Virus record (IMG/VR): IMGVR_UViG_3300035704_000011
Coordinates: 1-55,941 of that record
Strand: one strand, 5' to 3'
DNA from: a virus
Lineage: Duplodnaviria > Caudoviricetes
DNA: 55,941 nt
Shown here: positions 21,721 to 54,953 of the stretch, one piece after another
Layout of the letters: each line of letters starts with the position of its first letter
Position numbering within the stretch: position 1 is the first letter of the stretch
Program-made: the position numbers and the translations under genes
Notes under the pieces: generated by a model
The model's database searches: none
What the model saw: the letters and a program-made list of their open reading frames with translations, nothing else
Told to the model about the DNA's origin: nothing

Positions 21721-21860
21721 TGTGATCCTCCTTTTCTCGTGCCCTCCAAATACCACCCACCCGCTGCCGGATTAAACAATTATTTGCCCAAAAGACCCGC
21801 GTTTTCGCCGCAAAAAAGGCCGCAGCGCCGACGAGACCGCGCCAGGAATTAAGGAAAATC

Positions 21861-23494: not shown

Positions 23495-23531
23495 GCGTTT
23501 TCAATCACTTGCGAGAGGCAACGAAAGCGCG

Positions 23532-25826: not shown

Positions 25827-26080
25827 CGCCGCTGCTCACCATTGAGCCGCTCCCCCATCGACCGAGCGTCGACAGGCTGCGCGAGCCCGGATTGCGCGTC
25901 CAGCCAGCGGTCCAGGGCTTTGACATCCCACAGGTTCCGGCGGCCGAACTCGAGCGGCGGCACAGCGGGCTTGACCTGCTCGTCGAAAAAATTGGGCGAC
26001 ATGCCGCAGTAAAGCGCCGCTGCCTCGCGCGACAGTAATCGCGGCGTCATGCCGGCGGGCAGGCGGCGAGGCTCAGGCAT
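25823..26080 (-). CDS. Excisionase/AlpA-like HTH protein
   Basis: PRLLSREAAALYCGMS...WDVKALDRWLD. Confidence 0.75.
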   Translation of the reverse strand: MPEPRRLPAGMTPRLLSREAAALYCGMSPNFFDEQVKPAVPPLEFGRRNLWDVKALDRWLDAQSGLAQPVDARSMGERLNGEQRR

Positions 26081-26585
26081 CCGCAGCCCACCGCCAGAAG
26101 CCTTGTGCACCGCGCGCCGGCAGCGGGAGGTCGAACCGTTCGATCGCGGTTAGCGGCCACGCCCACATATGATGGTCGATCCGCATCGAATCCGCTTCGG
26201 CTGCGGCGGATTGCTCGCGACTGAACAAGATGTGAGCGCGGCGCGGCTCTCCCAGGATTGCTGTTCCGAGCACAGCAGAGAGAGGCAACATTCCTGGCGC
26301 GAGGTGCCATCGTTCCAAAAACGGCGCAGCGGCCTCGTTGATTATCGAGTGCTTCCGGTGCATGCGATCCAGTAGATCGGCGATTTCGTCTCGGCGAGCT
26401 GGGCGGGCACCGGCGTGGATCGCAATCCGTTTGCCGATCAGATCAGGTCGCCGAGACCGATAATCCCACTTGCGGAATTCGTAAGGCTTCCAGCCTTCGA
26501 TGATCAAGGTCGACCAAGGTGCCCACACCGTAAGGGCATAAACCGGCTCAGCCATCGGCAATGCACCAACATCCGTCGCAGTCAT
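26073..26585 (-). CDS. ASCH domain protein (copy 2)
   Basis: ALTVWAPWSTLIIEGWKPYEFRKW...IAIHAG...RGAQGFW. Confidence 0.85.
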   Translation of the reverse strand: MTATDVGALPMAEPVYALTVWAPWSTLIIEGWKPYEFRKWDYRSRRPDLIGKRIAIHAGARPARRDEIADLLDRMHRKHSIINEAAAPFLERWHLAPGMLPLSAVLGTAILGEPRRAHILFSREQSAAAEADSMRIDHHMWAWPLTAIERFDLPLPARGAQGFWRWAADA

Positions 26586-26711
26586 ATTTGAGACGGATGA
26601 GCCCGAGCGATTCCGCGACGAATACGGCGTGCGCGACCATGATGCCGAGCAGCGTGCAGCCCAGCCGAAAGGCGAAGCTTACCGCGCCATCCATCCAATA
26701 ACCAGGAGGCC

Positions 26712-26888
26712 TCACGCCAGGCCCTCGATCGTCGCCAGCACGGCACGCATCGCAGCGAGTTCGTGGTCGGCGGTCTCCTGCTTCATTTTTTTGATGGAGA
26801 CGCGCCGGGGATAGACGGCCTCGCGCATGGCGATCTCTCGCCTGACGCAGCGGATCTGGTCGGCGAGCGAAATGGTCGGTTCGCTCAT
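26712..26888 (-). CDS. Hypothetical phage protein
   Basis: ISLADQIRCVRREIAMRE.VYPR motif. Confidence 0.65.
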   Translation of the reverse strand: MSEPTISLADQIRCVRREIAMREAVYPRRVSIKKMKQETADHELAAMRAVLATIEGLA

Positions 26889-27121
26889 TCCGCCCAATCC
26901 AAGTCGCCGATTTCAATGGTCGGCTTAGACAACTCCAAAATGGCGGCCATCCGGGCGATAAACTCCTGCAGCTTAGAAATCTGGGATGCGTCAGCGATCG
27001 TGGCGTCGATCACGAACCGCACACGCTTGCCAGATTGCTCCAGGTACGAATTGAACCCATCCTCGCTCGCAATTGCGTTGGCGCGACGCCAGGCGGCCGT
27101 TTCTGCTCGCCCGCCGCTCAT
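26885..27121 (-). CDS. Hypothetical protein
   Basis: Overlapping start/stop with neighbours. Confidence 0.5.
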   Translation of the reverse strand: MSGGRAETAAWRRANAIASEDGFNSYLEQSGKRVRFVIDATIADASQISKLQEFIARMAAILELSKPTIEIGDLDWAE

Positions 27122-28434
27122 AGCGCCGGAGTCTCCCGCTCAACCTCCGACATCGCCATCGCCAGATCGGTCGAGGCTTGCTTGTCGGCCTGGCGCAGCA
27201 GGCTCAGGTAACGCGCCTGCGCGGCGCGAAAGGCTTTACGGTCATCCGGCGCGACAGCGCGGAATTCGGCCAGCACGCGTGCTGCGTAGTCTTTCCAGTC
27301 AAAGCCGCCGCGGACCTTTGACGGCTCGATCTCGGGATCGCCCCGGGGAGGGGTAGCACCTGGGGAAATCGCAACAGGGGGTCCTCCTTTCTGCTGATGT
27401 TGCCGATCCCCCTCCCCGGGGCGGTTCTGTTGCGCGCCGCGCAGCCGGGTGGCGAACGCCGCCTCGACCGCCGCGACGTGCTCGCGGTGCTGATCGCGAT
27501 ATTCCCGCATCACCGGCGCGTTGATCTCGCGAAAGCGGTGCACGTTTGCGAGTTCCCCGATGCTCTGGATCGCCGTCACCATGCGACCGCGCCATTCCTC
27601 GATCGTCGAGCAGCTGGTTTCGTCGCGGTTGCGCTTGATCGCGAAGCGGCGCGGCTCCAGCGCCTCGACCGATGGCCCTTGTGTGGGCGCGGGAGGCGCC
27701 GCCGTCTCGCCGTCGATGACGATCCCCTTCTCCGGGTGCAGATAGGCGTGTCGCCCTTGTTCCTCGTGCGCCTCGTCGATGCGGGCGGCCAGCACGAAGG
27801 AGGATAGGGGCAAGGACCGCCCCAAGCGTCGCCGCGCGGTCTTGGCGCACATTGCGGCGTACGGAATTCCAGGCTGATTCCATGGCGACTCGGCCCGCTT
27901 CGCGCCAGGTGCCCGATTTTTGATTTCGAGGATTTCGTCGATCGACATCACGACGACAATCGGCCGACGATCGGGCGCGGTAGCTGTCGCCCAGCTCGCG
28001 ACGATCCTCCGATCTTTCTCGCCCCCTAGCTGTGGCCGATGCAGGACATGGGGTTCGCTGCCGAGCTGGAAGTCGAATTCATCGTTATCACGCACGACCT
28101 CGCCAGCGACCGTCAGACCGGCGCGCCATCCCAAAGTTGCCTGACCTTTATAGCCCGTAATCCAATTCGCCTTCGCGATACCCTTGTCTCGGAAGGGCAC
28201 GAGGAATCCCTGGCCAGTCACACCATCCGCTTCCAGACCAAGGACGGCACCAGTCATCGCTGCCTGCATGATCGAGAGTGGTGTGCACGCCAAAAGCTGC
28301 TCGTTCCGTTCGCAGGAGATGACGACCGTGCGGATCATCCGCTCAGCTGTCAGGCCAGTCGGCCGCAGCACCTGATCGAACATTGGCCGAAGGGCCGACA
28401 GCTGGTGCTCGATGACGGCGAGGGCTTGGCTCAT
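27118..28434 (-). CDS. recT: RecT-family recombinase with C-terminal extension
   Basis: CTPLSIMQA...LGLE...LVPF...GYKG...SPW...MCAKTARRRL. Confidence 0.88.
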   Translation of the reverse strand: MSQALAVIEHQLSALRPMFDQVLRPTGLTAERMIRTVVISCERNEQLLACTPLSIMQAAMTGAVLGLEADGVTGQGFLVPFRDKGIAKANWITGYKGQATLGWRAGLTVAGEVVRDNDEFDFQLGSEPHVLHRPQLGGEKDRRIVASWATATAPDRRPIVVVMSIDEILEIKNRAPGAKRAESPWNQPGIPYAAMCAKTARRRLGRSLPLSSFVLAARIDEAHEEQGRHAYLHPEKGIVIDGETAAPPAPTQGPSVEALEPRRFAIKRNRDETSCSTIEEWRGRMVTAIQSIGELANVHRFREINAPVMREYRDQHREHVAAVEAAFATRLRGAQQNRPGEGDRQHQQKGGPPVAISPGATPPRGDPEIEPSKVRGGFDWKDYAARVLAEFRAVAPDDRKAFRAAQARYLSLLRQADKQASTDLAMAMSEVERETPAL

Positions 28435-29759
28435 AGTGGCAGCTCCCGCGCCTCCGACGTCGCCGCCTGTTCGGGACGGCTCCCCTCGGAGGATCGGATT
28501 GCGCCGTCTTCGATCACCACGCCAGTTTTGCCCTCGTCGTCGGTGACCTCCAGCCAGCATTGATAGTCCTGCGACTCGATCATTTCCGACAAAAGACGCA
28601 GGCTCTCGCGGTCGAGCAGCGAACCGTCGCGGATGCACAGCACGCGCAGCTTCGGATTGGCCGCCATGGCAATGGCCACGCTGACGCGGATCTTCTCGGC
28701 TTGCGAGGCTTGATCGAGCGGCAGCCCGTCGAACAGAACCTCGCCATCGCCAAAGCTCAGGCCCGGCACCGGCATCGAAGCATTGGCGATCGCCTCGGTC
28801 CTTCTCGCGAGCCGCTCTTCCATCGCGGTAGTCAACGCATGAGAGCGCGCTTCGAGAACCCGCGCTTCGGCCTCTATCGTCTCCCGACGCAGCTTGGCTT
28901 CGACCTGCGCGTTGATCTCGCGCGCCGCCTCAAGCTGATCGACGATGTCGGCGGTATCCACTTGATCCGGAACCGGCGGTTGTTCAGCGAGCTCTTTGTC
29001 GATCCGAGCCGCCTGCGTTTCGAGCTCGGCCGCGGCAGACTCCAGCGCGTCTGCTTCCCGGCGCAAATCCGCGGCTTCCTCGCGTCGTTCCGCTGCGGTC
29101 CGGCGCTCGCGATCGGCCTCGGCCTCCGTCGCCTCGCGCCGCCACTTTAGCCGCTCGAGTAAGGAATTCGCCTCCCCTGCCGAGCGCAACCTCTCTGTCA
29201 ACGCCGCAACGTCGATCGGCTCAGTCGGCAGGTCTCCCGGATATTGAATGCCGCCGGCCTGGCCGCGCAGCCGGCGCGCATCGCGGTTGACCTCGGTGCG
29301 AGTCTCGTAATCGCGTGCGTTTTGCCCATCCAGCGCATCAACGTCGCCGTCGAGCTTCACGAGGCGGCGCAGCGCGTCGAGCTGCTCTCGCGGCTCCATC
29401 CTGGTGAATTCGAGCGGGTCGAACGCGATCGCGCCAATCATCTCGTCGAGCATCCGCTGCGGCGATGGAAAGCGCGCACCTGACGCCGCCTCGACGGTCA
29501 CTGTCGAGCTGCCCTGCCCAAATCTCCGCGTGACGATGATCTCGCCGAGATCTAGTCGGATCCGCGCACTCTCCGCGCCGCGGCGGATTGGCCGCTGAGG
29601 CGTGGCCTTCAGGCCACCCACCGCGCTCCAAATCGCATCGAGCACGCTGGATTTCCCGGCAGCATTGGCTCCCCGGATTTCGACCAGATTGCCGTTTGGG
29701 GTGATCTCCACGGCGCGCAGCCGCTTGAAATTCTCGGCGGCCAGTTTGATGATCTTCAT
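28431..29759 (-). CDS. SMC-like AAA ATPase
   Basis: ENFKRL, Walker A GANAAGKSS, coiled coil, IRDGSLLD. Confidence 0.85.
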   Translation of the reverse strand: MKIIKLAAENFKRLRAVEITPNGNLVEIRGANAAGKSSVLDAIWSAVGGLKATPQRPIRRGAESARIRLDLGEIIVTRRFGQGSSTVTVEAASGARFPSPQRMLDEMIGAIAFDPLEFTRMEPREQLDALRRLVKLDGDVDALDGQNARDYETRTEVNRDARRLRGQAGGIQYPGDLPTEPIDVAALTERLRSAGEANSLLERLKWRREATEAEADRERRTAAERREEAADLRREADALESAAAELETQAARIDKELAEQPPVPDQVDTADIVDQLEAAREINAQVEAKLRRETIEAEARVLEARSHALTTAMEERLARRTEAIANASMPVPGLSFGDGEVLFDGLPLDQASQAEKIRVSVAIAMAANPKLRVLCIRDGSLLDRESLRLLSEMIESQDYQCWLEVTDDEGKTGVVIEDGAIRSSEGSRPEQAATSEARELPL

Positions 29760-32549: not shown

Positions 32550-32863
32550 ACGAGGCCCCGGGACAGCTCGATCGCCGCCTGTTGAATCGTAATTACAGCC
32601 TTGTCCGCATGCGCTTGCGCTTTATGCCGAGCGCTCGCTGCCGCGTCGCGGGTGTCATAAACCAGCGCGGCGTCGAACCACTGCGGTCGCGAATACCGGC
32701 CTTGTGGATCGTGCTTGCTGCCGGCAACTTCAAGACAGATCTGCAGCCGCCCGGCACGGGTGCGCTCAGCCCGACCTTGGAGGAAGCACAGCCTAGCAAG
32801 GCGAGCTCCGGGCCCGGCTACGAGCCAGCGGATGTTGTCGGCGGCGGCGGCCGGCGCGATCAT
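32546..32863 (-). CDS. Hypothetical protein
   Basis: Coupled ORF. Confidence 0.5.
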   Translation of the reverse strand: MIAPAAAADNIRWLVAGPGARLARLCFLQGRAERTRAGRLQICLEVAGSKHDPQGRYSRPQWFDAALVYDTRDAAASARHKAQAHADKAVITIQQAAIELSRGLV

Positions 32864-34143
32864 CCCGCCGCTCCGGCGAGCGACTGGAATTCCGCGATCC
32901 AGCCCTCAACGATCATCGCCAGTTGATTCGTCGCTGGAGTGTCGCCCTTGTGGATCCCGAGAAACCAACGCTCAATCTGCCGATCAGAATTGGCAAAGCC
33001 GAGTTCACTTAACGGCACGCGCCGAATATTGGCGATCGTTCCAGCCAAGCAGGCGCAATCGCCGGTGTAGGTCGATCCGTCTATCCGACCTTCGCGTAGG
33101 GCGGCGAGCAGGCCAGGGATCTCGGGCTGCGCGCGCAATAGAACATCCCAAAAATCATTGCGGACGCCGTCGAGGCGGGCGCCGTCGAGGCTGGCGCCGA
33201 AGAGGCTGGCGCCGTCGAGGCGGGCGCCGTCGAGGCGGGCGGCGTCGAGGCTGGCGCCGACGAGGCTGGCGCCGAAGAGGCGGGCGCCGTCGAGGCGGGC
33301 GCCGTCGAGGCGGGCGCCGTCGAGGCGGGCGGCGTCGAGGCGGGCGCCGACGAGGCTGCCGCCGTCGAGGCTGGCGCCGAAGAGGCGGGCGCCGACGAGG
33401 CTGGCGCGGTCGAGGCGGGCGCCGTCGAGGCGGGCGCCGTCGAGGCGGGCGCCGTCGAGGCGGGCGGCGTCGAGGCTGGCGCCGTCGAGGCGGGCGCGGT
33501 CGAGGCGGGCGCCGTCGAGGCGGGCGGCGTCGAGGCTGGCGCCGACGAGGCTGGCGCCGTCGAGGCTGGCGCCGAAGAGGCGGGCGCCGACGAGGCTGGC
33601 GCGGTCGAGGCGGGCGCCGTCGAGGCGGGCGCCGTCGAGGCGGGCGCCGTCGAGGCTGGCGCCGACGAGGCTGGCGCCGACGAGGCTGGCGCCGACGAGG
33701 CTGGCGCGGTCGAGGCGGGCGCCGTCGAGGTGGGCGCCGTCGAGGCGGGCGCCGTCGAGGCGGGCGGCGTCGAGGCTGGCGGCGTCGAGGCTGGCGCCGA
33801 CGAGGCTGGCGTCGAGGCGGGCGCCGTCGAGGCTGGCGCCGACGAGGTGGGCGCCGTCGAGGCGGGCGCCGTCGAGGCGGGCGGCGTCGAGGCTGGCGCC
33901 GACGAGGCGGGCGCCGACGAGGCTGGCGCCGTCGAGGCGGGCGCCGTCGAGGCTGGCGCCGACGAGGCGGGCACCGTCGAGGCTGGCGCCGTCTGAGACT
34001 ACGATCTCAAGCGCGGCACGAAGGTACCATCGCTCTTCGTAGGCCGGGATCTGCACCTCAAGTGAGGCGCGGCCCGTCCATCTGAGGAACGGGATCTTTA
34101 CGGTGATGGTGCCGGTAGCGGCGTCGGCGTCGTCGTCTGGCAT
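32860..34143 (-). CDS. Pentapeptide repeat protein
   Basis: About 55 A(R/S)L(D/V/F)G repeats between non-repetitive ends; GGAGGGGAG RBS. Confidence 0.92.
33163..33993. repeat. 15-bp tandem repeat tract encoding the pentapeptides
   Basis: Near-identical gccgtcgaggcgggc units; one 12-bp unit near 33805. Confidence 0.95.
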
Positions 34144-34170
34144 GCTCCCCTCCCGCATATTGTCCGAGCC

Positions 34171-34223
34171 ACGATATTTGCATTCATGCACATTGGTCAA
34201 GAGGAAAGTTTGCAATTATGCGC
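34171..34223 (-). promoter_or_regulatory. PL-like promoter and OL operators
   Basis: -35 TTGACC (34200-34195), -10 TATCGT (34176-34171); TTGCA-N4-TGCRC boxes at 34178-34191 and 34210-34223. Confidence 0.75.
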
Positions 34224-46175: not shown

Positions 46176-46667
46176 TTGCCAAGGAAGTCTAACTTTTCGG
46201 GCCAGGTCGCGAACCGGGCCGAGATGGCCGGGATCCTTGGCGTCAGCCCGACAACCCTCGATCGCTATGTCGCGGCCGGCTGTCCGGTCGAAACGCGCGG
46301 CGAACTGCGACGGGAGTACCAGTTCAACTCGGCTGCGGTGATCGCCTGGCGTGACCAGCGGGACGCTGCGGCGCGCGAGAAGGCTGGGGCCGCCGGTCTG
46401 ACCGGCGCCGAGAGCGCAAGGGAGCGCTATACGCTCGCATCGGCCGAGCTGAAGGAGTTGCAGCTTGCCGAAAGGCGCGGGCTGATGATCTCGGTCGAGG
46501 ACGTCGCGCCGATTCTCGCCGACGAGCTGGCGAATGTCCGCTCGCGGCTGATGGCGATGCCAGGGCGGCTGGCGACGGTGCTCGCCGACATGACCGATCC
46601 GGCGACGATCGAGACGACGATCGAGGAAGAGGTCGCCGGTGCCCTCAGCGAATTGAAGAGTGGCTGA
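46176..46667 (+). CDS. Terminase small subunit (Nu1-like)
   Basis: NRAEMAGILGVSPTTLDRYVAAGCP wHTH plus coiled coil. Confidence 0.9.
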   Translation: MPRKSNFSGQVANRAEMAGILGVSPTTLDRYVAAGCPVETRGELRREYQFNSAAVIAWRDQRDAAAREKAGAAGLTGAESARERYTLASAELKELQLAERRGLMISVEDVAPILADELANVRSRLMAMPGRLATVLADMTDPATIETTIEEEVAGALSELKSG

Positions 46668-48672
46668 ACCGAAAACTGCGCTGGAAGCTGCGGAGAAATT
46701 ACGAGGGCTCGTTAGGGCCGCGATTACCGAGGCGCTGCGGCCGCCGCTGCGCATCAGCCTGCCGGAGTGGGCCGATACATACCGCCGGCTGTCGCGCGAC
46801 AGCGGCAGCATCGGCGGGGCCTGGCAGACGAGCCGCGTTGCGGTCGCGCGCGGCCCGATGATGGCGGTGACCGAGCCCGGGGTGCAGGTCATCACGCTGA
46901 TGGTCGCGACCCAGCTGCTCAAGACGAGCGTCTTGGAAAACGTCATCGGCTACTACGCGCACACCGACCCATGCCCGATGCTGCTGGTGCAGCCCAAGGA
47001 CGAAGCGGCCGACTCGTTCTCGAAGGAGCGCCTCGCGCCGATGATCGCGGCGACGCCGATCTTGCGCGAGCTGATGGGCGACCAGCGCACGCGGCGCTGG
47101 GAAAACACGCTGGGGTTTCGCAAATTCCCCGGCGGGTCTCTGGCGATCGTCTCGGCCGGAAGCCCGACCAACCTGGCGATGCGCGCGATCCGCGTCACCT
47201 TGCTCGACGAGATCGACAAATACGAGACGAGCAAGGAGGGCGACCCGGTCGGGCTCGCCGAGGAGCGCAGCGCCACCTTCACGACCCGGCGGCTGTCGAT
47301 CCGGGCCTGCTCGCCGACCTGGGAAGAGACCAGCCGGATCAACCGCTCTTACAACGAGAGCGACCAGCGGCGCGCCTTTGTCCCCTGCCCGCATTGTGGA
47401 CACTCACAAGACCTCGACTTCTTCCGGCACGTCCATTGGGAGAAATCCGAGGACGGCCGGCACCTACCCGAGACCGCGCATATCGGCTGCGAAAGCTGCG
47501 GCGTTGTGTGGAGCGAGGCCGAGCGGCTTCTCGCGCTGCAGCGGATCGAGTGGCGGCAGACCCGGAAAATCACCTGTTGCGGCGAGGCGCAGGACCCGCG
47601 CGCGACCCGGTCGTGGCTATGGGACGCCAAGACCGAGGTCGGTTATGCGACTTGCACGCATTGCGGCAAACGAGCGGTGCCGCACCGGCACGCCGGGTTT
47701 ACCGCATCGAAGCTCTACAGCCCATGGCTGACGGTCGTGGATCTGGCGAAGGCGTGGATCGTCGCCAAGGACGATCCGGAATCGAAGCAGACCTTCTACA
47801 ACACGCAACTCGCGCTGGCCTACAAGACCGAGGCGCTGAAGGAACTCGGGCACGAGGCGCTGCTGCGCCGCCGCGAGCATTGGGAAGCGGTGCCGGACGA
47901 GGTGCTGGTCATCAGCGCCGGCGTCGACATGCAGGACAACCGGCTCGAGGTCGAGGTCGTCGGCTGGGGGCTCGGCGAGGAAAGCTGGTCGCTGGCCTAT
48001 GAGATTTTCACCGGCGACCCGGCGAAGAATGAGGTTTGGAGCGAGCTCGACGAATTCCTGCTGGCGCCGCTGACGCGAGCCGACGGCAGGGCAATGGCTA
48101 TCCGCGCCGCCTGCATCGATAGCGGCGGTCACAACACGCAGGACGCCTACCGCTTCGCGCAGGCTCGCATCGGCCGCAATGTGTGGGCGATCAAGGGCGC
48201 CTCCGACCGCGCGCAATGGTCGCCGATCTGGCCGAGCTCGACGCGGTCGAAGGGCGGTCGCTACCGCGCCGGCTATCGGCCTATCATCCTTGGCGTCAAC
48301 GCCGCCAAAGAGGCGGTTCGCCAGCGCCTACTGATCGCCGAGCCGGGACCCGGATATTGCCATTTCCCGGTCGGACGATCGGCCGGCTATTTCGAGCAGC
48401 TGACCAGCGAGCGGCTGGTCATCGAGCGCAAGGGCGGCACGTTGCTGCGCCGCTGGGTTTTGCCGGCGCACCGCGCTGCCGAGGCGCTCGACTGCCGGGT
48501 CTACGCCTATGCAGCCCTGTGGGGTCTCTATCACCTGCGCCGCCTGCGGCTCGATCGCGCCGCGCAGCTGATCAACGATGCGCCGCCGGCGGTCGCTGCG
48601 CACGCAGCGGCGCCGACGGCAGGCGCAACCATGCGGCCGCGCTCGCGGCACAGCAACTTCGTCAGAGGTTAA
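46660..48672 (+). CDS. Terminase large subunit (lambda gpA family)
   Basis: TQLLKT (variant Walker A), LLDEID, CSPT, GVDMQ, CIDSGG, EALDCRVYA. Confidence 0.95.
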   Translation: MAEPKTALEAAEKLRGLVRAAITEALRPPLRISLPEWADTYRRLSRDSGSIGGAWQTSRVAVARGPMMAVTEPGVQVITLMVATQLLKTSVLENVIGYYAHTDPCPMLLVQPKDEAADSFSKERLAPMIAATPILRELMGDQRTRRWENTLGFRKFPGGSLAIVSAGSPTNLAMRAIRVTLLDEIDKYETSKEGDPVGLAEERSATFTTRRLSIRACSPTWEETSRINRSYNESDQRRAFVPCPHCGHSQDLDFFRHVHWEKSEDGRHLPETAHIGCESCGVVWSEAERLLALQRIEWRQTRKITCCGEAQDPRATRSWLWDAKTEVGYATCTHCGKRAVPHRHAGFTASKLYSPWLTVVDLAKAWIVAKDDPESKQTFYNTQLALAYKTEALKELGHEALLRRREHWEAVPDEVLVISAGVDMQDNRLEVEVVGWGLGEESWSLAYEIFTGDPAKNEVWSELDEFLLAPLTRADGRAMAIRAACIDSGGHNTQDAYRFAQARIGRNVWAIKGASDRAQWSPIWPSSTRSKGGRYRAGYRPIILGVNAAKEAVRQRLLIAEPGPGYCHFPVGRSAGYFEQLTSERLVIERKGGTLLRRWVLPAHRAAEALDCRVYAYAALWGLYHLRRLRLDRAAQLINDAPPAVAAHAAAPTAGATMRPRSRHSNFVRG

Positions 48673-48676
48673 GCAA

Positions 48677-49084
48677 ATGAAGGTTATGAAAGCTGTCCTG
48701 ACCTGGGGCATGCCAGCCACGCTGGCCTTGCTGGTCTCGTGCTCGCCTGCAATGGCGGCCAGCACGACGACGTCGAACGTAGTGATTACCGTCAAGCACT
48801 CTGCGGCGGTCATCGCTGTGGCGCCTAGCGCACCAAGTATTTTCGACGACCTCGCCGCCGGCCAGATCGTCTTTGTCGCGACGGTGACGATGACGAATGG
48901 AAAGGCTTTCGCCGGCCAGGTCAGCTTTTCCGATCCCAGCAATGTGTTCAGCCTAGTGCCGGCGAGCCCTCAAACGACACCCCCATCGTGGAACGTGGTT
49001 GTGGGCGCAAACGGTCTGCTGAGCATGATCCCGGCGGGCCAAGCGCAAATTATTGACACCGTGTCGATCACCGCGAAGCCGTAA
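48677..49084 (+). CDS. Exported cadherin/Ig-like protein (moron)
   Basis: Signal peptide ending AMA-A; beta-sandwich resembling C-terminus of 7125-7886. Confidence 0.65.
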   Translation: MKVMKAVLTWGMPATLALLVSCSPAMAASTTTSNVVITVKHSAAVIAVAPSAPSIFDDLAAGQIVFVATVTMTNGKAFAGQVSFSDPSNVFSLVPASPQTTPPSWNVVVGANGLLSMIPAGQAQIIDTVSITAKP

Positions 49085-49088
49085 AAAA

Positions 49089-49298
49089 ATGGCGGATGAT
49101 GCTGCGAGCCAGCTCGCCGCGCTCAAGAAAGCAAGAGCCAGCGGTGTGCTGACCGTGCACCACGGCGACACGTCGACGACGTTCCGCACGCTGGCGGAAA
49201 TCGACTCGATCGTCCGCAGCCTCGAAGCCGAAGCCGAGGCCGCCAGCAGCCCGCGCCCTCGGTTGCGCTACGCGGTTCAGCTGACCAAGGGCCTCTGA
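49089..49298 (+). CDS. Head completion protein (gpW-like)
   Basis: QLAALKKARASGVLTV.HGD....FRTLAEI. Confidence 0.88.
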   Translation: MADDAASQLAALKKARASGVLTVHHGDTSTTFRTLAEIDSIVRSLEAEAEAASSPRPRLRYAVQLTKGL

Positions 49299-49307
49299 AG
49301 GATAGCG

Positions 49308-50198
49308 TCAGGCCGCTGCGCGCGGCGTGTCTTCGGCGGGATGCACGCGCAATCTGGGCTCCAAATCAGAGCCGGCATCCCGCCACGCCCGCCACAGATC
49401 GCGCAGCAGGCGCTTTGTCATATAGCGGCGCGCGTCGGCATCGGCGTGCGCCGGGGTCCAGCCGCGGGCCAGCACCCAGGCCTTGCGCTCGGCGTAGGCC
49501 TCGCCGTAGGGACCGATCGGGTGGGCTGGCGCATCGTCCTTGGCGCCGCGCCACTGCGCGCGGAACAGCACGTCGGAGCAGAAGACCCAGACCTCGGCGC
49601 GGCGTTGCCGGTTGTAGCCATGCCGGATCCAGTCATCCTTGGTGGCGCCCTCGCCGGGGCTGCCCTGGCGGTGACCGTCGAAGACCGCGAGGCCGAGCCG
49701 CTTCCACAGCTTTGCGGGGTTGGCATAATTGCCGAGATCGCCGGCCTCGCCGACGATAACGGCAAGGCCGAGCTCGCCGAAGCCGCGGACGGCGTGGACG
49801 AACGAGATTGCCGGCAATGCGCGAGCCAGCTTGATCATGCGCTTCTCGACATCGCCGCGCAGCTGGTCCCAGGTGGCGCGCGACGCCGCCGATGCGATGA
49901 CCAGACGCGGCAGGTCGCTATTCGCCGGGAACTGGTCGATCTTGCCGCCCTCGATCTCGCGGCGCAGCTTTGCGGCTGCGCTGAAGAGCGCCTTCCGCTC
50001 GGCTGGGACAAGGCTGGTATGGTAGCCCGACGACCGCGCCAGCAGCGCCTCGATCGAACGATCGCAGCGCTGCTGCTGGCGGATGCAAAAGATCCTGTGG
50101 CGTTGCCGCTCAATAAGATTTTCGCAGGCCTCGCTGACGGACATGTTCCCCAAGGGGGGCAGCGTCGACCCGGTCCGTCCGGCGCGGTCGTCAGGCAT
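49308..50198 (-). CDS. IS110/Nop-fold RNA-binding protein without nuclease domain (TasA-like); alternative start at 50144
   Basis: Coiled coil, VRGFGELGLAVIVGEAGDLGNYANPAKLWKRLGL, YNRQRR, ARRYMTKRLLRDLWRAW match the IS110 C-terminal half; no DEDD RuvC or HNH. Confidence 0.82.
   Translation of the reverse strand: MPDDRAGRTGSTLPPLGNMSVSEACENLIERQRHRIFCIRQQQRCDRSIEALLARSSGYHTSLVPAERKALFSAAAKLRREIEGGKIDQFPANSDLPRLVIASAASRATWDQLRGDVEKRMIKLARALPAISFVHAVRGFGELGLAVIVGEAGDLGNYANPAKLWKRLGLAVFDGHRQGSPGEGATKDDWIRHGYNRQRRAEVWVFCSDVLFRAQWRGAKDDAPAHPIGPYGEAYAERKAWVLARGWTPAHADADARRYMTKRLLRDLWRAWRDAGSDLEPRLRVHPAEDTPRAAA
49335..49384 (-). ncRNA. Guide-like hairpin unit 5 (3' end of Tas-like gene)
   Basis: GGCGGGATGC-CG-gctctgatt-TGGAGCCCA-gattgcgcg-T-GCATCCCGCC. 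Confidence 0.8.
50136..50179 (-). ncRNA. Guide-like hairpin unit 4 (5' end of Tas-like gene)
   Basis: GACGGAC-CG-ggtcgacgc-TGCCCCCCT-tggggaaca-T-GTCCGTC. Confidence 0.7.
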
Positions 50199-50862
50199 TC
50201 GGCGCGCTGGTCGCGAGTTTCCAGCAGAGCATGATCTCGTCGTCGGAGCGCTCGCCGATCAGCATCGAATCGGGCATGCCCTCCGTGACCAGGGCGGCAA
50301 AGCGCACCCATGCGCCTTGGGCGAGGCCCCAGGCGCGCAGCTCGCCGGCCGAGAGCTGCGCGAGCTGTTTGCCGTTGATGACATGGTCGAGCAGGAAGCA
50401 GCGCTTGGCTCGCTCGACCGCAGCCTGAGCCGCGGTTGATGGCCCAGCTGGCGGACGGGCATCACGGCTTTGGGTATCAATTGCGGAACGGCCCGTCGCG
50501 CTCGGCTGGGTTTGGTGTGGTCTAGCCGCGGGCTGGGCATGCGGGGGCTGGGCATCGTGCCCTTTATGGCCTGACCCGGGGCTGGATTTCGCTTTGTTGC
50601 GCTCACGCATTTCGTGCAGCACCTGTCTGAACAGGTGGAGCATGGCCGGCCCGCGGACCTCGGCGACGAGCTCCCAGATCAGCGCTGCGGCATCATCGTC
50701 GGCGAGCAGCGTCTGCTCGAAAACGACGAGAGACGGCTCGGGGATGCCCTTGCCGATGCGGATCGCTGCCGCCATGAGCGAGCGCAGCCGCTCGGCGGCC
50801 GTCTGAAACCCGGCTGCCCGCATGGCGGTGCCGACGGTCGTGGGTGTTTCGATCTCTTGCAC
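50191..50862 (-). CDS. Tas-associated hypothetical protein whose linker is encoded by two guide units
   Basis: GTG start with AGAGGGGGA RBS; two helical domains joined by a P/Q/H/A-rich linker. Confidence 0.75.
   Translation of the reverse strand: MQEIETPTTVGTAMRAAGFQTAAERLRSLMAAAIRIGKGIPEPSLVVFEQTLLADDDAAALIWELVAEVRGPAMLHLFRQVLHEMRERNKAKSSPGSGHKGHDAQPPHAQPAARPHQTQPSATGRSAIDTQSRDARPPAGPSTAAQAAVERAKRCFLLDHVINGKQLAQLSAGELRAWGLAQGAWVRFAALVTEGMPDSMLIGERSDDEIMLCWKLATSAPNA
50454..50497 (-). ncRNA. Guide-like hairpin unit 3
   Basis: GACGGGC-CG-ttccgcaat-TGATACCCA-aagccgtga-T-GCCCGTC. Confidence 0.82.
50530..50577 (-). ncRNA. Guide-like hairpin unit 2
   Basis: GGGTCAGGC-CA-taaagggca-CGATGCCCA-gcccccgca-T-GCCCAGCCC (imperfect stem). 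Confidence 0.72.
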
Positions 50863-50879
50863 AGGCTTCCCCCTCTGCT

Positions 50880-50933
50880 GCGGGTCGCGGCATCAGTGAA
50901 ATGGGCGGCAAACTTATTAGGGCCGCAACCCGC
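50880..50933 (-). ncRNA. Guide-like hairpin unit 1 (5' leader)
   Basis: GCGGGTTGCGGC-CC-taataagtt-TGCCGCCCA-tttcactga-T-GCCGCGACCCGC. Confidence 0.8.
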
Positions 50934-50939
50934 GGGCCG

Positions 50940-50968
50940 AGAGTAGCAATCGCGAGAGGGTGACGCAA
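50940..50968 (-). promoter_or_regulatory. Sigma70-type promoter of the Tas-like moron
   Basis: -35 TTGCGT (50968-50963), 17 bp, extended -10 TGcTACTCT (50945-50940); predicted +1 near 50933. Confidence 0.7.
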
Positions 50969-50973
50969 CGCAA

Positions 50974-52515
50974 ATGCCACTGGACGGGCCGCGCATCCTC
51001 GACCGGTACGGCAATCCGGCGCGCCGCGCCACCGGGCTCAACCCCGGCGCCATCGGCGGAACCGCCGCATCGCCGCATGCCTCGTGGGATGCCGGCCAGA
51101 CCGGGCGCCGCCTCAGCGCGATCCCGACCGCGGCGCGCTCGATCAACACGCTGCTGCGCAGCTATGGCAAGGCGGTGCTGGCGCGGTCGCGCTACCTGGC
51201 GGCTAACAACCCTTATGCCGCGGCGGCGCGCGAGGCCTACATCAGCTCGATGGTCGGCTCGGGCATTATCCCGTCGCCGAATTTCGACGACGCGAAATTG
51301 AAGGCGACGGTCAATCAGGTCTGGGATGACTGGACCGACGAGGCGGACGCCGACTGGATCACCAATTTCTACGGGCTGCAGTCGATCATTGCCGGCGAGC
51401 TCTTCGAGGCCGGCGAGGTCTTTGTCCGGTTCCGCCCGCGCATGCAGCAGGACGGTTTTATCGTGCCGCTGCAATTGCAGGTGCTGCCGGCCGAGATGCT
51501 CGATGCGAACTGGAACCGGAACCTCAACCTCGGCAACGGCAGCCGTATCGAGTGTGGCATCGAGTTCGATGCGATCGGGCGACGCCGCGCCTACCACTTC
51601 TGGGCCACGTTCCCCGGCACCGACCAATATTTCGGGGTGGGCCCATGGACCCGGATCGCGGTGCCCGCCGACCAGATCCTGCACATCTACCGGCCGATCC
51701 GCGCCGGCCAGCTGCGCGGGATCCCGCACACCCTCTCGATGATCACGACCTTGGCGTTGCTTGATCTCTACGACGACGCCGAGCTCGAGCGGAAGCGCGT
51801 CGCGGCGCTCTTCGGCGCCTTTATCACGCGGCCCGACCGCGACGACGAGGACCACCCGCTCGGGATGGCGCAGAACCTGACGACACCGCGCGGCGACGTG
51901 CAGCCGAGCCCGGCGCTGGAGCCGGGTGTGACGGTCGATCTGGCGCCCGGCGAGGACATCAAATTTGCCGAGCCGGCCGATGTCGGCAGCACCTATGAGC
52001 CATTCCAGTACCGCTGCCTGCTGCGGGCCGCCGCCGGCGCCGGCATACTCTATTCGGACATGACCGGGGACCTGCGGCGCACCTCGTTCGGATCGATCCG
52101 CGCCGGCCTCATCGCGCACCGCCGGCGCGTCGACACACTGCAGCAGTCGGTGATCATCTATCAGCTGTGCCAGCGGGTCTATAACCGTTGGTGGACTGAG
52201 GCGGTGTTAGCCGGCGCGTTGCCGGTCAGCCCGGCCGATTTTGCGGCCAATCAGCGGATGTACCGCCGCGCCGACTGGATCCCGCCGAAATGGGACTGGA
52301 TCGACCCGCTGAAGGACATCGAAGCCGAGCAGCTCGCGGTGCAGAACGGATTCAAGTCGCGCAGCGCCGTCATCAAAGGGACGGGACTGGACCCGGCGAT
52401 CGTCGACATGGAACGAAAACAGGATTTCGAGCGCGAGACGAGGCTCGGCCTGCCGCATACAGAGGCCCAGCCGCCGCCGCCGGTTCCGGCCGGCGCGAGC
52501 GGGCCATCGGAGTGA
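50974..52515 (+). CDS. Portal protein (lambda family)
   Basis: ARSRYLAANNPYA, RAGQLRGIP, TGDL....FGSIRAG, WDWIDPLKD. Confidence 0.95.
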   Translation: MPLDGPRILDRYGNPARRATGLNPGAIGGTAASPHASWDAGQTGRRLSAIPTAARSINTLLRSYGKAVLARSRYLAANNPYAAAAREAYISSMVGSGIIPSPNFDDAKLKATVNQVWDDWTDEADADWITNFYGLQSIIAGELFEAGEVFVRFRPRMQQDGFIVPLQLQVLPAEMLDANWNRNLNLGNGSRIECGIEFDAIGRRRAYHFWATFPGTDQYFGVGPWTRIAVPADQILHIYRPIRAGQLRGIPHTLSMITTLALLDLYDDAELERKRVAALFGAFITRPDRDDEDHPLGMAQNLTTPRGDVQPSPALEPGVTVDLAPGEDIKFAEPADVGSTYEPFQYRCLLRAAAGAGILYSDMTGDLRRTSFGSIRAGLIAHRRRVDTLQQSVIIYQLCQRVYNRWWTEAVLAGALPVSPADFAANQRMYRRADWIPPKWDWIDPLKDIEAEQLAVQNGFKSRSAVIKGTGLDPAIVDMERKQDFERETRLGLPHTEAQPPPPVPAGASGPSE

Positions 52516-52665: not shown

Positions 52666-52716
52666 GAGGCGCGAGAATAGCGCTAACCGCCTCGAAAAAG
52701 CACAGTGCTTAGCAGC

Positions 52717-52740
52717 AAGCCGCCTTTTGGGCGGCTTTTG
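52717..52740 (+). terminator. Terminator-like hairpin
   Basis: AAGCCGCC-tttt-g-GGCGGCTT-TT. Confidence 0.6.
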
Positions 52741-52757
52741 CATTTCAGGGACAGCAA

Positions 52758-53900
52758 ATGGCGAAAAAGACGTGGTTCTCCGCTGCGGCGGGAGCCAATG
52801 GCACGGCCGATATCGCGATTTACGACGATATCGGCTCCTGGGGAGTCACTTCGGGTGATTTTCGCGACGCGCTGGCCGCCGTCGGGCCGGTCGACACGAT
52901 CAAATTGCGGCTGAATTCGCGCGGTGGCGACGTATTCGACGGGATCGCGATCCACAACATGCTGGCGCGCCATCCAGCCAAGGTCAACGTCACCGTCGAC
53001 GGCGTCGCCGCCTCGATCGCCAGCATCATCGCGATGGCCGGCGACGAAGTGACGATGCCGGAAAACGCGACGATGTTCATCCACAACCCCTTCGCCCTCG
53101 CGATGGGTGACGCGACCGTCATGGCCGAGATGTCCGACGCCCTCGACAAGCTCGGTCGGGGTATGGCGGCGACCTATGCACGCAAGACCGGGCAGGAGCC
53201 CGAGGCGATGCTGGCGGTGATGAATGCCAACACCTGGATGACTGCGCAGGAGGCCAAAGACAAAGGGTTTGCGGATGTCGTGGCCGCGCCGGCAAAGATC
53301 GTGGCGCGGTTCGATCTGCGGCACCTGGCGCCTCCCGCCGCGATCGTCGCGCAGCTGCAAGCGGCCTACGACCCAGACGGCGACGGCGACGACGATGTGC
53401 TCGAGTGCCTCGGCTTTATCGGCAAGGCCATCGATAACCTGGCGGACGCGGTCGGGTGCCTGACCGGCGCCGGCGATCCGGATGATGACAGCGAGCCGGC
53501 GCCCCCGGCGATGGCATCGCTACGCAAGGCCTTGCGCGCGGCCCTTTCAGCGCTCCCGCAGGCGGCCGCAGACGCCCCCGCCGTCTACCTGACAGGAGAT
53601 CTGGCGTCCTTTCCCGCGAACAGCGGCGAGGCCGAGCAAAATGGCGGCGGCAAAGAGACCCGGGCCGAGGAGATGATCCAGATCTCCGCCGCCTGCAAGC
53701 TCGCCGGGCTATCGGATCTCGCAACGGAATTTATGCAATCGGGCAAGAGCCTGGTGCAGGTGCAATCCGAGCTTCTGAAGCTGCGGGCCAATCGTGGCGA
53801 CGGCTCCGATGGCGAAATCGGCTCGCGCCACAACCCGATCTCCCGCGACCTGACCGAGACCTGGGCGAAGACGCTGGACAAGATTAACGCAAGGAACTGA
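52758..53900 (+). CDS. ClpP-type prohead protease with scaffold region
   Basis: LNSRGGDVFDG, DGVAASIASII, MFIHNP, TWMTAQEA. Confidence 0.93.
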   Translation: MAKKTWFSAAAGANGTADIAIYDDIGSWGVTSGDFRDALAAVGPVDTIKLRLNSRGGDVFDGIAIHNMLARHPAKVNVTVDGVAASIASIIAMAGDEVTMPENATMFIHNPFALAMGDATVMAEMSDALDKLGRGMAATYARKTGQEPEAMLAVMNANTWMTAQEAKDKGFADVVAAPAKIVARFDLRHLAPPAAIVAQLQAAYDPDGDGDDDVLECLGFIGKAIDNLADAVGCLTGAGDPDDDSEPAPPAMASLRKALRAALSALPQAAADAPAVYLTGDLASFPANSGEAEQNGGGKETRAEEMIQISAACKLAGLSDLATEFMQSGKSLVQVQSELLKLRANRGDGSDGEIGSRHNPISRDLTETWAKTLDKINARN

Positions 53901-54884: not shown

Positions 54885-54906
54885 ACGGCGCAATTTTCCG
54901 CCTAGC

Positions 54907-54930
54907 AAAGCCGCCTTCGGGCGGCTTTTT
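54907..54930 (+). terminator. Terminator-like hairpin before capsid gene
   Basis: AAAGCCGCC-ttcg-GGCGGCTTT-TT. Confidence 0.7.
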
Positions 54931-54953
54931 CATTTTTCAGGAGTCCGGCCAAA

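What the first reader, a model, noticed from the sequence alone, without database searches (positions are those of the whole stretch)
50191..50862. Guide units dispersed inside coding sequence, and an uncharacterised partner protein
Seen: instead of a contiguous non-coding array, two units form the in-frame low-complexity linker (GSGHKGHDAQPPHAQP and TGRSAIDTQSRDARP) of a 223-aa ORF, and two more encode the extreme ends of the Tas-like ORF. Inference: one transcript is both mRNA and pre-guide RNA, so guide processing would destroy the message, and spacers must avoid in-frame stops. The upstream ORF may be a dedicated effector or cofactor for the nuclease-less protein. I do not know of a description of this layout.
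Basis: partly seen in the sequence, partly recalled or inferred. Interest (0 to 1): 0.85.

Follow-up and report, generated by a model that had tools for sequence, protein, structure and literature searches.

The report
Guide RNAs embedded in partner gene
A temperate phage carries a nuclease-free RNA-guided DNA-binding system (TIGR-TasA) whose guide RNA units are scattered through its two-gene operon, two of them written in frame inside the flexible linker of a conserved, previously undescribed partner protein.

Summary
On the minus strand, 49334-50932, lie five about 52-nt stem-loop units: stem, CCR, 9-nt spacer, YG, 4 nt, CCA, 9-nt spacer, UG, stem. This is the published anatomy of stem-loop tigRNAs. 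A covariance model built only from units of other phages ranks these five first in the 56-kb genome.

The 296-aa ORF is a TasA. Its family profile hits only TasR 9MTY in the PDB, and its AlphaFold model matches TasR and TasH best.

The 223-aa ORF is a real gene of an unnamed family: two folded helical domains joined by a disordered linker that holds units U1 and U2.

The layout is conserved. The partner sits directly upstream of tas in 39 of 86 related viral loci. Both domains share one open frame in 37 of 37 loci, and 20 of 39 partners host 1-3 units. In two phages with 89% identical partner genes, the embedded spacers are 2 of 18 identical.

Guides inside tas itself were reported in a 2026 preprint. 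Guides inside a conserved partner gene, and the partner family, were not in the texts I could read.

Co-transcription, processing, targets and the partner's function remain inferred. This is a new variant of a known kind.

The parts
50881..50932 (-). Unit U0. A stem-loop tigRNA-like unit in the 5' leader, upstream of the partner ORF, inside the 111-nt gap to the divergent portal gene. Box C is CCC, spacer A is 9 nt, then UG, CCGC, CCA, spacer B of 9 nt, UG. The stem is 10-13 bp.
   Evidence: Covariance model R1 gives 31.0 bits, E 6.8e-4. The pattern matches with 1 mismatch. Stem of 13 with at most 1 mismatch. The MFE structure shows a 12-bp closing stem.
50191..50862 (-). Partner gene, 223 aa, GTG start preceded by AGGGGGA. 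It has an N-terminal helical domain (about residues 9-92), a disordered linker (about 93-141) and a C-terminal helical domain (about 142-219). It belongs to an unnamed family found directly upstream of tasA.
   Evidence: GC at codon position 3 is 0.83 (N domain), 0.58 (linker) and 0.86 (C domain). AF2 mean pLDDT is 82, with the linker at 52-67. The family has 258 representatives at E<=0.001. No Pfam family is shared by the 49 members scanned. The best Foldseek PDB match has E 0.62. It lies upstream of tas in 39 of 86 loci.
50528..50579 (-). Unit U1, in frame in the partner linker (residues 95-112). It is the weakest unit: box D of the loop is CG, not UG, and the stem is interrupted by two adjacent mismatches.
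   Evidence: Exact pattern match. R1 gives 21.8 bits, E 0.043. The MFE keeps the closing stem; z is -2.4.
50450..50501 (-). Unit U2, in frame in the partner linker (residues 121-138). It is the best-scoring unit of the window.
   Evidence: Exact pattern match. R1 gives 33.1 bits, E 2.7e-4. The MFE shows a long closing stem; z is -3.3.
50132..50183 (-). Unit U3, at the partner/tasA junction. It starts 8 nt after the partner stop codon. Spacer B contains the GGGGA before the ATG at 50144, and the final box D 'UG' is the UG of that ATG. If tasA starts at the ATG at 50198, which overlaps the partner stop, U3 encodes codons 6-22. The second box C is CCU.
   Evidence: Pattern match with 1 mismatch. 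R1 gives 25.9 bits, E 7e-3. A 7-bp closing stem appears in the MFE and the centroid, but z is +0.65. Sequence read.
49308..50198 (-). tasA. A Nop-domain-only TIGR-associated protein, 296 aa from the ATG at 50198. The public gene call is 278 aa from the ATG at 50144.
   Evidence: 865 homologues. The family profile hits only TasR 9mty_A in the PDB, E 2.1e-8. AF2 pLDDT is 93.5. Foldseek's best matches are TasR and TasH, then IS110-family recombinases. No nuclease or other Pfam domain.
49334..49385 (-). Unit U4, in frame in the disordered C-terminal tail of TasA (codons 272-289 of 296), with a perfect 10-11-bp stem.
   Evidence: Exact pattern match. R1 gives 32.1 bits, E 4.2e-4. The C-terminal blocks of the AF2 model have pLDDT 55 and 51. 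MFE stem, z -2.3. The closest homologue, P0004 (70% identical), keeps the box-coded residues of this tail but differs at the spacer-coded ones.

Best explanation
The region 49308-50932 (minus strand) is a stem-loop TIGR-TasA system of a temperate phage, laid out as a compact two-gene operon: U0, partner gene containing U1 and U2, U3, tasA containing U4.

Shown:
- The 296-aa protein is a nuclease-less Tas protein (TasA).
- The five units have the anatomy of stem-loop tigRNAs. Each has two 9-nt spacers, each preceded by box C (CCR) and followed by box D (YG). A 9-nt loop lies between the spacers, and a variable stem closes the unit.
- The 223-aa ORF is a genuine protein-coding gene of a conserved TasA-associated family. 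Its disordered inter-domain linker serves as a landing pad for 0-3 guide units.
- These units are kept in frame, are almost always read in one phase, and have spacers that turn over while the rest of the gene stays conserved.

Inferred:
- The operon is transcribed as one RNA, and the units are bound by a TasA dimer and trimmed out of that RNA. Each guide taken from U1 or U2 would then cost one partner message. TasA binding at U3 would occlude its own translation start, giving negative feedback.
- The mature RNPs bind 18-bp DNA targets, one spacer per strand, and block transcription, as shown experimentally for other TasA proteins. The targets would lie in the host or in competing mobile elements, not in the phage itself.
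- The partner protein acts with TasA, as a cofactor, effector or processing aid. Its activity is unknown.
For: TasA identity:
- The family profile's only significant PDB hit is TasR 9mty_A, E 2.1e-8.
- The AF2 model has pLDDT 93.5. Foldseek ranks 1-7 are TasR and TasH (E 5.5e-5 to 3.4e-3), followed by the IS110-family recombinases ISCro4 and IS621.
- No nuclease domain is present.

Units in the window:
- The exact motif occurs 4 times against 0.23 expected.
- A model built only from foreign units ranks the five units first in the window.

Units in related loci:
- In 86 related viral loci the model finds 112 + 124 = 236 hits at E<=0.05, and all 236 are on the tas-sense strand.
- Without any stem requirement, the motif occurs 173 times on the sense strand and 5 times on the antisense strand. 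134 of the 173 have at least 5 uninterrupted flanking pairs, against 0 of the 5.
- Base frequencies of 140 distinct units show even base use in the two 9-nt spacers. The third base of each box C, left free by the selection pattern, is A in 74-76% of units, giving CCA. The loop is A-rich. This matches box C 'CCA', box D 'UG', 9-nt spacers and the 9-nt loop described by Faure 2025 and Xu 2026.

Partner is coding:
- The N and C domains carry the genome's codon-position GC signature, and the linker does not.
- Both domains are in one stop-free frame in 37 of 37 loci.
- The family has 258 representatives.

Conserved embedding:
- 20 of 39 partner genes host 27 units: 25 in codon phase 2, 2 in phase 1 and 0 in phase 0.
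- The peptide imprint of a phase-2 unit occurs 51 times in 37 of 151 family representatives, against 0.22 in shuffles.
- An Acetobacteraceae MAG locus has three units in the linker.

Spacer turnover:
- Between L019 and L021, the partner CDS outside the unit is 521 of 584 identical, while the embedded spacers are 0 of 9 and 2 of 9 identical. Read by eye from the two sequences, two stem pairs change on both sides and still pair.

Disorder:
- U1 and U2 lie in the linker, with pLDDT 52-67. U4 lies in the tail, with pLDDT about 50.

Function of TasA:
- RNA-guided DNA binding and repression by other TasA proteins were shown by Xu 2026.
Against: - There is no RNA evidence of any kind for this locus, so expression, co-transcription and processing are not shown.
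- No sigma-70-like promoter was found in 49100-51200.
- No target was found. The best 18-bp matches in the phage's own genome have 3 mismatches, no better than shuffled guides.
- U1 is weak: E 0.043, loop box D is CG, and the stem is broken.
- U3 folds no better than shuffles, z +0.65.
- The CUU trinucleotide that Xu 2026 report at stem bases is not seen at the bases of the five stems (read).
- 19 of 39 partner genes carry no detectable unit, and 47 of 86 Tas loci show no partner, some of them cut at the contig end.
- One partner homologue (L096) has no tas and no units within 3.5 kb.
- The partner has no recognisable family or fold, so its role is a guess.
- The strong phase bias may reflect common descent rather than selection.
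- The loci are related to each other. L029-L032 give identical unit scores and offsets, as do L083/L084 and L079/L080. The locus counts therefore overstate the number of independent events.
Confidence: 0.8

Rival explanations
1. The embedded units are mainly cis-acting TasA binding sites on the mRNA, acting as translational or stability operators for autoregulation of the partner and tasA. They are not sources of mature guides.
For: U3 overlaps the GGGGA and the ATG at 50144 of tasA, and starts 15 nt after the alternative ATG at 50198. Many relatives have a unit abutting the tas start, for example L003 3936, L012 3938, L017 3933, L020 3932, L027 3936 and L030 3951.
Against: A pure operator needs boxes and a stem but not variable spacers. 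Yet the embedded spacers are replaced between near-identical genes, 2 of 18 identical against 89% elsewhere. Embedded units also score as well as intergenic ones; U2 is the best hit in the window. Intragenic units of BlTasA were recovered as processed RNAs in RNP pull-downs (Xu 2026). The two roles do not exclude each other.
Confidence: 0.1
2. The embedded units are decaying relics of an array that was overrun by an expanding or fused ORF. They are tolerated in a disordered linker but no longer used.
For: U1 is degenerate: CG box D, broken stem, E 0.043. 19 of 39 partners have lost or never had units. Disordered linkers tolerate almost any sequence.
Against: Boxes and stems are kept in 27 embedded units across diverged loci. 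Two stem pairs change on both sides and still pair between L019 and L021 (read by eye from the sequences). U2 and U4 are among the best matches to a model trained on intergenic units. The imprint is present in 37 of 151 family representatives.
Confidence: 0.06
3. The 223-aa ORF is not one protein. The region is a non-coding spacer-like stretch, or two small genes, that happens to be open in a GC-rich genome.
For: GC-rich genomes give many long spurious ORFs (one search lists 73 ORFs of at least 50 aa in 10 kb). The linker lacks the coding GC3 signature, 0.58. The first word-indexed search found only one homologue.
Against: The N and C parts have GC3 of 0.83 and 0.86 and low GC2, like the bona fide genes. 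There are 258 family representatives. Both domains are in one stop-free frame in 37 of 37 loci, although the linker varies by 0-3 units. AF2 folds both domains with pLDDT above 90.
Confidence: 0.03
4. The 'units' are chance GC-rich hairpins in a low-complexity linker.
For: The thermodynamic z-scores of single units are modest, from -1.9 to -3.3, with one at +0.65.
Against: The motif occurs 4 times against 0.23 expected. A model built from foreign units ranks the five first. All 236 hits in relatives are on the tas-sense strand.
Confidence: 0.01

Closest known systems
Stem-loop TIGR-TasA systems (PlTasA, BlTasA, MbTasA): Faure et al. 2025, Science, PMC12045711; Xu et al. 2026, bioRxiv 10.64898/2026.09.09.750476; 'Asymmetric DNA targeting' preprint 10.64898/2026.08.11.744272
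   Same: A Nop-only Tas protein. Units have two short spacers, each flanked by box C (CCA) and box D (UG), a roughly 9-nt loop and variable palindromic stems. Units lie upstream, downstream and inside tas, in disordered regions and without breaking the frame. The system is phage-borne.
   Different: Here there is no contiguous array at all. Two of the five units lie inside a different, conserved protein-coding gene. The CUU motif at the stem base is not seen. No experimental data exist for this clade.
tasParB-tasA operons (Faure et al. [quoted passage not shown]
   Same: A conserved gene sits in an operon directly upstream of tasA, with guide units upstream, downstream and between the two genes.
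   Different: That partner is ParB-like and its arrays are dual-repeat. This partner has no ParB or any other Pfam match (0 of 49 members share a family) and no PDB fold match. Its arrays are stem-loop, and units lie inside its ORF.
IS110/IS621 bridge-RNA recombinases
   Same: They share the Nop-like RNA-binding domain. Foldseek ranks 8-13 go to ISCro4 and IS621. There is a weak Transposase_20 match and a PHROG 'transposase' label.
   Different: No DEDD/RuvC domain is present, so no recombinase function is expected. The guides are short dual-spacer units, not a bridge RNA.
Eukaryotic snoRNA host genes (box C/D snoRNAs carried within transcripts of protein-coding genes; recalled general knowledge, no call)
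   Same: Box C/D-type guide RNAs are carried inside the transcript of another gene, so guide supply and host-gene expression are coupled.
   Different: snoRNAs lie in introns and are released by splicing without cost to the message. Here the units lie in translated sequence, so release and translation of the same molecule should exclude each other.

Membership tests
TIGR-Tas, TasA subtype (protein) | Nop-domain fold related to solved Tas proteins | tested here: met
   The profile of 68 homologues hits only 9mty_A (TasR), E 2.1e-8. The AF2 model (pLDDT 93.5) has Foldseek ranks 1-7 at TasR and TasH, E 5.5e-5 to 3.4e-3, TM about 0.5.
TIGR-Tas, TasA subtype (protein) | No HNH or RuvC nuclease domain | tested here: met
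   No Pfam domain at E<=0.01. At E<=10 there is only a sub-threshold Transposase_20 match. The model is a coiled coil plus a C-terminal domain only.
TIGR-Tas, TasA subtype (protein) | Dimerisation through the coiled coil | not tested
   Long N-terminal helices are predicted. No homodimer prediction was run.
Stem-loop TIGR array (RNA) | [quoted passage not shown] | tested here: met
   All five units have 9-nt spacers, a 9-nt loop, box C of CCR (CCC in U0, CCU in the second box of U3) and box D of UG (CG in the loop of U1).
Stem-loop TIGR array (RNA) | Variable palindromic stems closing each unit | tested here: met
   Stems are 7-13 bp and differ in sequence. U1 is interrupted by two mismatches.
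Stem-loop TIGR array (RNA) | Several units beside tas on the same strand, conserved across relatives, with variable spacers | tested here: met
   Five units lie on the tas strand. All 236 hits in 86 loci are on the tas strand. Base use in the spacers is even. Spacers are swapped between L019 and L021.
Stem-loop TIGR array (RNA) | CUU motif at the stem base as processing mark (frequent, per Xu 2026) | tested here: not met
   No CUU was seen at the bases of the five stems on reading. The feature is described as frequent, not as defining.
Stem-loop TIGR array (RNA) | Expression and processing into discrete tigRNAs bound by Tas | not testable with these tools
   No RNA run was listed.
TIGR-Tas (function) | RNA-guided binding of an 18-bp DNA target, one spacer per strand | not testable with these tools
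   A self-genome search gave nothing beyond shuffled controls. Searches of public collections have no power for 18-mers.
tasParB partner | ParB-like domain in the gene upstream of tasA | tested here: not met
   No ParB match among 49 partner-family members. The best Foldseek PDB match has E 0.62.
IS110-family transposase | N-terminal DEDD/RuvC-like catalytic domain plus Transposase_20 above threshold | tested here: not met
   No DEDD_Tnp_IS110 match. Transposase_20 scores 13.8 bits against a cut-off of 21.3.

The most novel reading that the evidence does not exclude
The partner is a dedicated guide host gene and a TasA cofactor in one. Its disordered linker is a programmable cassette site where whole tigRNA units are gained, lost and re-spacered without breaking the protein. 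Guides are cut out of its mRNA, so each guide made destroys one partner message. TasA binding at U3 shuts off tasA translation. The system thereby sets its own ratio of guide, effector and cofactor. The partner would then be the missing auxiliary factor for stem-loop tigRNA maturation, or the effector that gives nuclease-less TasA an activity beyond steric repression.
Probability: 0.3. Interest if true: 0.85.

Novelty: new variant of a known kind. Interest (0 to 1): 0.68.

Why it matters
TIGR-Tas is a recently discovered family of compact, PAM-free RNA-guided DNA binders. How stem-loop guides are transcribed, matured and renewed is unknown, as is what nuclease-less TasA does in nature; the authors of the 2026 preprint list these as open questions.

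This locus and its relatives contribute two things.

First, they reveal a conserved, unnamed partner protein family in the tasA operon. It is found in 39 of 86 related viral loci and has 258 representative clusters. It is a concrete candidate for the auxiliary factor or effector.

Second, they show guide units written in frame into that partner's linker. Spacer replacement inside an otherwise conserved gene shows that guide renewal operates within coding sequence under a double constraint: an RNA structure and an open frame.

The mRNA-versus-guide conflict becomes directly testable on a 1.7-kb fragment. The work also gives a simple protein-level imprint, G-[HQR]-x3-[DE]-x-[QH]-x3-[AV], that flags embedded guides in protein databases.

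Tried and rejected
Searches that found nothing useful
- Chance hairpins were rejected.
- The second exact motif match at 10641 (plus strand) and the 1-mismatch matches at 10683 and 11505 lie inside a 740-aa tail-like ORF without flanking stems, so I treat them as chance.
- A stems-only hairpin census was uninformative: about 4000 background hairpins per strand.
- The self-target search tried both possible 18-bp geometries, up to 5 mismatches, both strands. The best matches had 3 mismatches, no better than 200 shuffled guides.
- I did not search public collections for targets. An 18-mer is expected by chance about once or more per pattern in collections of 1e11 bases or more, and Xu 2026 make the same point.
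- Partner function: Pfam and PHROGs found nothing for the window's protein, and Pfam found nothing shared by the 49 members. The ESM Atlas gave no usable hit. The best Foldseek PDB match had E 0.62.
- P0102, labelled 'ParB-like nuclease domain' by its source, has no Pfam match. It looks like a read-through of the Tas C-terminal half into a following gene, so it does not link the partner to ParB.
- Complex prediction with two TasA copies plus the partner, each with its alignment, gave 'no answer', score 0.00. That is neither for nor against binding.
- The look-up of sequencing runs (kind rna) listed no RNA holder.
- The promoter scan found 0 sites. The 3 terminator-like sites compare with 1.1 expected and were not interpreted.
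- The word-indexed protein search found only one partner homologue. The exhaustive profile search found 258.
- Supplements of the papers are closed. Faure 2025 figs S13-S14 and tables, and the Xu 2026 extended data and TIGRSafari, may already show partner genes or partner-embedded units. My statement that this is not described rests on two things: the main-text sections read (Faure sections 4, 6, 8, 9, 24, 44 and 49; Xu sections 5, 7, 11, 12 and 13, plus term searches), and literature searches.
Full report
Context. The window is a complete 55,941-bp virus record with direct terminal repeats. It encodes a tyrosine integrase, so the phage is probably temperate. The finding lies in a lambda-like head module on the plus strand:
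- Nu1-like small terminase, 46176-46667
- gpA terminase, 46660-48672
- gpW-like adaptor, 49053-49298
- lambda-family portal, 50974-52515
- ClpP-type protease, 52758-53900

Two minus-strand ORFs are wedged between the adaptor and the portal. One is a 296-aa ORF (49308-50198). The other is the 223-aa ORF of the finding (50191-50862). Its stop overlaps the ATG of the 296-aa ORF by 8 nt.

The units.
- The exact pattern occurs 4 times in the window against 0.23 expected, and 0 of 100 shuffles reach 4. Three of the four are here on the minus strand.
- With one mismatch, two more appear at the locus: 50142-50173 and 50891-50922.
- The fourth exact match (10641, plus strand) has no flanking stem and lies in a tail-like ORF.
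- I then built a covariance model from 140 distinct units taken only from other viral loci. Searched with filters off, it gave five top hits in the window: U2 50450-50501 (E 2.7e-4), U4 49334-49385 (4.2e-4), U0 50881-50932 (6.8e-4), U3 50132-50183 (7e-3) and U1 50528-50579 (0.043). All are on the minus strand, and the next hit has E 0.097.
- Each unit folds with the predicted closing stem around a 30-nt interior. The z-scores are modest (-1.9, -2.4, -3.3, +0.65, -2.3), as expected for a structure that is mostly an open loop.

What the units are. The anatomy matches the published stem-loop tigRNA. That RNA has two 8-12-nt spacers, each flanked by box C ('CCA') and box D ('UG'). It has a loop of about 9 nt and variable palindromic stems in place of edge repeats (Faure 2025; Xu 2026).
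- Across 86 related viral loci the model finds 112 + 124 = 236 hits at E<=0.05. All 236 are on the strand of the tas homologue, although both strands were searched.
- With no stem requirement, the bare motif occurs 173 times on that strand and 5 times on the other. 134 of the 173 have at least 5 uninterrupted flanking pairs, against 0 of the 5.
- In the 140 units the spacer positions have even base use. The third base of each box C, which the selection pattern left free, is A in 74-76% of units, giving CCA. The loop is A-rich, and only the stem bases next to the boxes are conserved.

The Tas protein. The 296-aa ORF (278 aa in the public gene call) has 865 homologues. None of the 120 listed has a Pfam domain.
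- Its own Pfam signal is a sub-threshold Transposase_20 match. PHROGs calls it 'transposase'.
- A profile of 68 homologues hits one PDB sequence, 9mty_A, at E 2.1e-8. That entry is the TasR-tigRNA-DNA structure of Faure et al..
- The AlphaFold model (pLDDT 93.5, pTM 0.86) matches TasR and TasH chains best (ranks 1-7), then the IS110-family recombinases.
- With no nuclease domain, it is a TasA.
- Its last 20 or so residues are disordered, and that is where U4 lies.
- The closest homologue, P0004 (70% identical), keeps the box-coded residues of this tail and differs at the spacer-coded ones.

The 223-aa ORF is a real gene.
- Its N-terminal 90 and C-terminal 81 codons have the genome's coding signature (GC3 0.83 and 0.86, GC2 0.44 and 0.49). 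The linker does not (GC at positions 1/2/3 is 0.73/0.71/0.58).
- The word-indexed search found one homologue. An exhaustive profile search found 258 representative clusters at E<=0.001.
- AlphaFold gives two confident helical domains, residues 9-92 and 142-219, joined by a disordered linker with pLDDT 52-67. The linker holds U1 (residues 95-112) and U2 (residues 121-138).
- The family has no Pfam model: 0 of 49 members share one. It has no PDB fold match (best E 0.62) and no Atlas lead.
- It is not the ParB-like 'tasParB' that Faure et al. found beside dual-repeat tasA genes.

The layout is conserved.
- A profile of the partner family finds a homologue on the same strand directly upstream of tas in 39 of 86 Tas-seeded viral loci. 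Some of the others are cut at the contig end.
- Of 8 viral loci found by searching with the partner, 7 have tas downstream. The exception, L096, has a short linker, no units and no tas within 3.5 kb.
- The single locus found in the genome collection is an uncultured Acetobacteraceae MAG. It has the partner, tas, and three units in the partner linker.
- In 37 of 37 loci where both partner domains are detected, they share one stop-free frame.
- 20 of 39 partners host 1-3 model hits between the domains, 27 units in all. 25 of these have the first C of box C at codon position 3, 2 have it at position 2, and none has it at position 1.
- Position 1 would read the frequent UGA of 'UG-A' as a stop. 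The bias between the other two phases may be descent or selection; I cannot tell which.
- Several loci are near-duplicates: L029-L032 give identical unit scores and offsets, as do L083/L084 and L079/L080. The independent count is therefore lower.
- At the protein level, the imprint of a phase-2 unit, G-[HQR]-x3-[DE]-[TAPSN]-[QH]-x3-[AV], occurs 51 times in 37 of 151 family representatives. Shuffles give 0.22 on average and at most 2.
- By the strict motif with stems, 140 distinct units in the 86 loci fall as follows: 85 upstream of tas, 32 downstream, 13 inside the partner and 10 inside tas.

Spacer turnover inside a gene. L019 and L021 carry partner genes that are 521 of 584 (89%) identical outside the embedded unit. 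Within the unit, the boxes and the stem architecture are kept, but spacer A is 0 of 9 identical and spacer B is 2 of 9 identical. Read by eye from the two sequences, two stem pairs change on both sides and still pair. The neighbouring intergenic units of the same two phages have identical spacers, and L021 has one extra whole unit, a 53-nt indel. This is the behaviour expected of a guide cassette. It is not expected of a peptide under selection or of a decaying relic.

How it most likely works. The inferred steps run as follows:
- A single transcript starts upstream of U0. No promoter was detected by the sigma-70 scan.
- TasA dimers bind the box C/D pairs of each unit.
- Host or auxiliary RNases trim the units out.
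- The RNPs bind 18-bp targets, with one spacer on each DNA strand, and block transcription. This last step was shown for MbTasA and catalytically dead TasR and is supported structurally for PlTasA.

Because U1 and U2 are translated sequence, release of a guide and translation of the same mRNA molecule should exclude each other. U3 contains the GGGGA and the ATG at 50144, or codons 6-22 if the ATG at 50198 is used. TasA binding there should therefore repress its own synthesis. None of this was tested. No RNA run was listed for this sequence. No target was found in the phage's own genome beyond what shuffled guides give, so the targets are presumably in the host or in competing elements. In the one named relative, Rhizobium phage RHph_X2_25, the unannotated tas locus lies in the immunity region between 'repressor protein C' and an XRE-family gene. 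That position fits a regulatory or exclusion role, but it is only context.

Comparison with what is known. The system is a member of the stem-loop TIGR-TasA kind. [quoted passage not shown] U3 and U4 are therefore examples of a described phenomenon. Relatives here also carry a unit about 170-230 nt into tas. What I did not find described is a conserved non-Tas partner gene that hosts guides in its linker, nor the partner family itself. That statement rests on the main texts read, on term searches and on library searches. Supplements and TIGRSafari could not be seen. The CUU processing motif reported by Xu et al. is not evident at the stem bases here.

Verdict. I rate this a new variant of a known kind, of real interest to the TIGR-Tas field.

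Noticed in passing
window 33160-33993 (ORF 32860-34215, minus strand): A 15-nt tandem repeat with 55.8 copies at 88% match makes a 79% GC block. On the minus strand it encodes a 451-aa protein made largely of pentapeptide repeats (A-[SR]-L-[DV]-G). This looks like a phage-borne pentapeptide-repeat protein of unusually regular, recently expanded repeats.
   Followed up: partly
window 48578-49084 (+): This ORF lies between the terminase and the gpW-like adaptor. Its product contains MKVMKAVLTWGMPATLALLVSCSP, a signal peptide with a lipobox-like LVSC (motif recalled, not tested). It has no Pfam or PHROG match. It may be a moron-type lipoprotein.
   Followed up: no
window 24050-24406 (minus strand, 368-aa frame): A tyrosine integrase (PF00589, 50.9 bits) is present, so the phage is probably temperate.
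   Followed up: partly
L097 = Rhizobium phage RHph_X2_25 (MW960032.1), record 21813-28463: A cultured, named phage carries an unannotated stem-loop TIGR-Tas locus. The tas gene is annotated 'hypothetical protein'. Model hits lie at locus positions 1756, 2443, 2621, 2908, 2963, 3022 and 3913, and three of them fall inside the 5' part of the annotated tas CDS. The locus sits between 'repressor protein C' and an XRE-family gene. This phage could serve as an experimental system.
   Followed up: partly
L003 4173, L012 4197, L013 4200, L016 1160, L019 4170 and 4227, L020 4230, L021 4230, L027 4179, L033 4203: Many relatives carry one or two units about 170-230 nt into tas. This may be the internal (wedge-loop) position reported for BlTasA; I did not map it onto the fold. 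The window's tasA has none there.
   Followed up: partly
L019 3169-3990 versus L021 3124-3990: L021 has one whole extra unit, a 53-nt insertion, in the intergenic array relative to L019. The flanking units have identical spacers. This is gain or loss of a whole unit between close relatives.
   Followed up: yes
L098 3742-3928, 4295-4352, 4664-4721 (Acetobacteraceae MAG contig): The units of this locus span 58 nt against the 52-nt model, so its spacers or loop are longer than in the viral set. Three of the units lie in tandem in the partner linker.
   Followed up: no
window 52714-52745 and 54904-54935 (+): Two similar GC-hairpin-plus-T-run elements, 78% alike, follow the portal gene and the gene before the major capsid gene. 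They are probably intrinsic terminators or attenuators within the late operon.
   Followed up: no
P0102 (311 aa, from the protein collection): Its source labels this protein 'ParB-like nuclease domain'. It is the C-terminal half of a close Tas homologue (70% identical) that continues into unrelated sequence, and it has no Pfam match. It is probably a chimeric gene call, and the label is misleading.
   Followed up: partly
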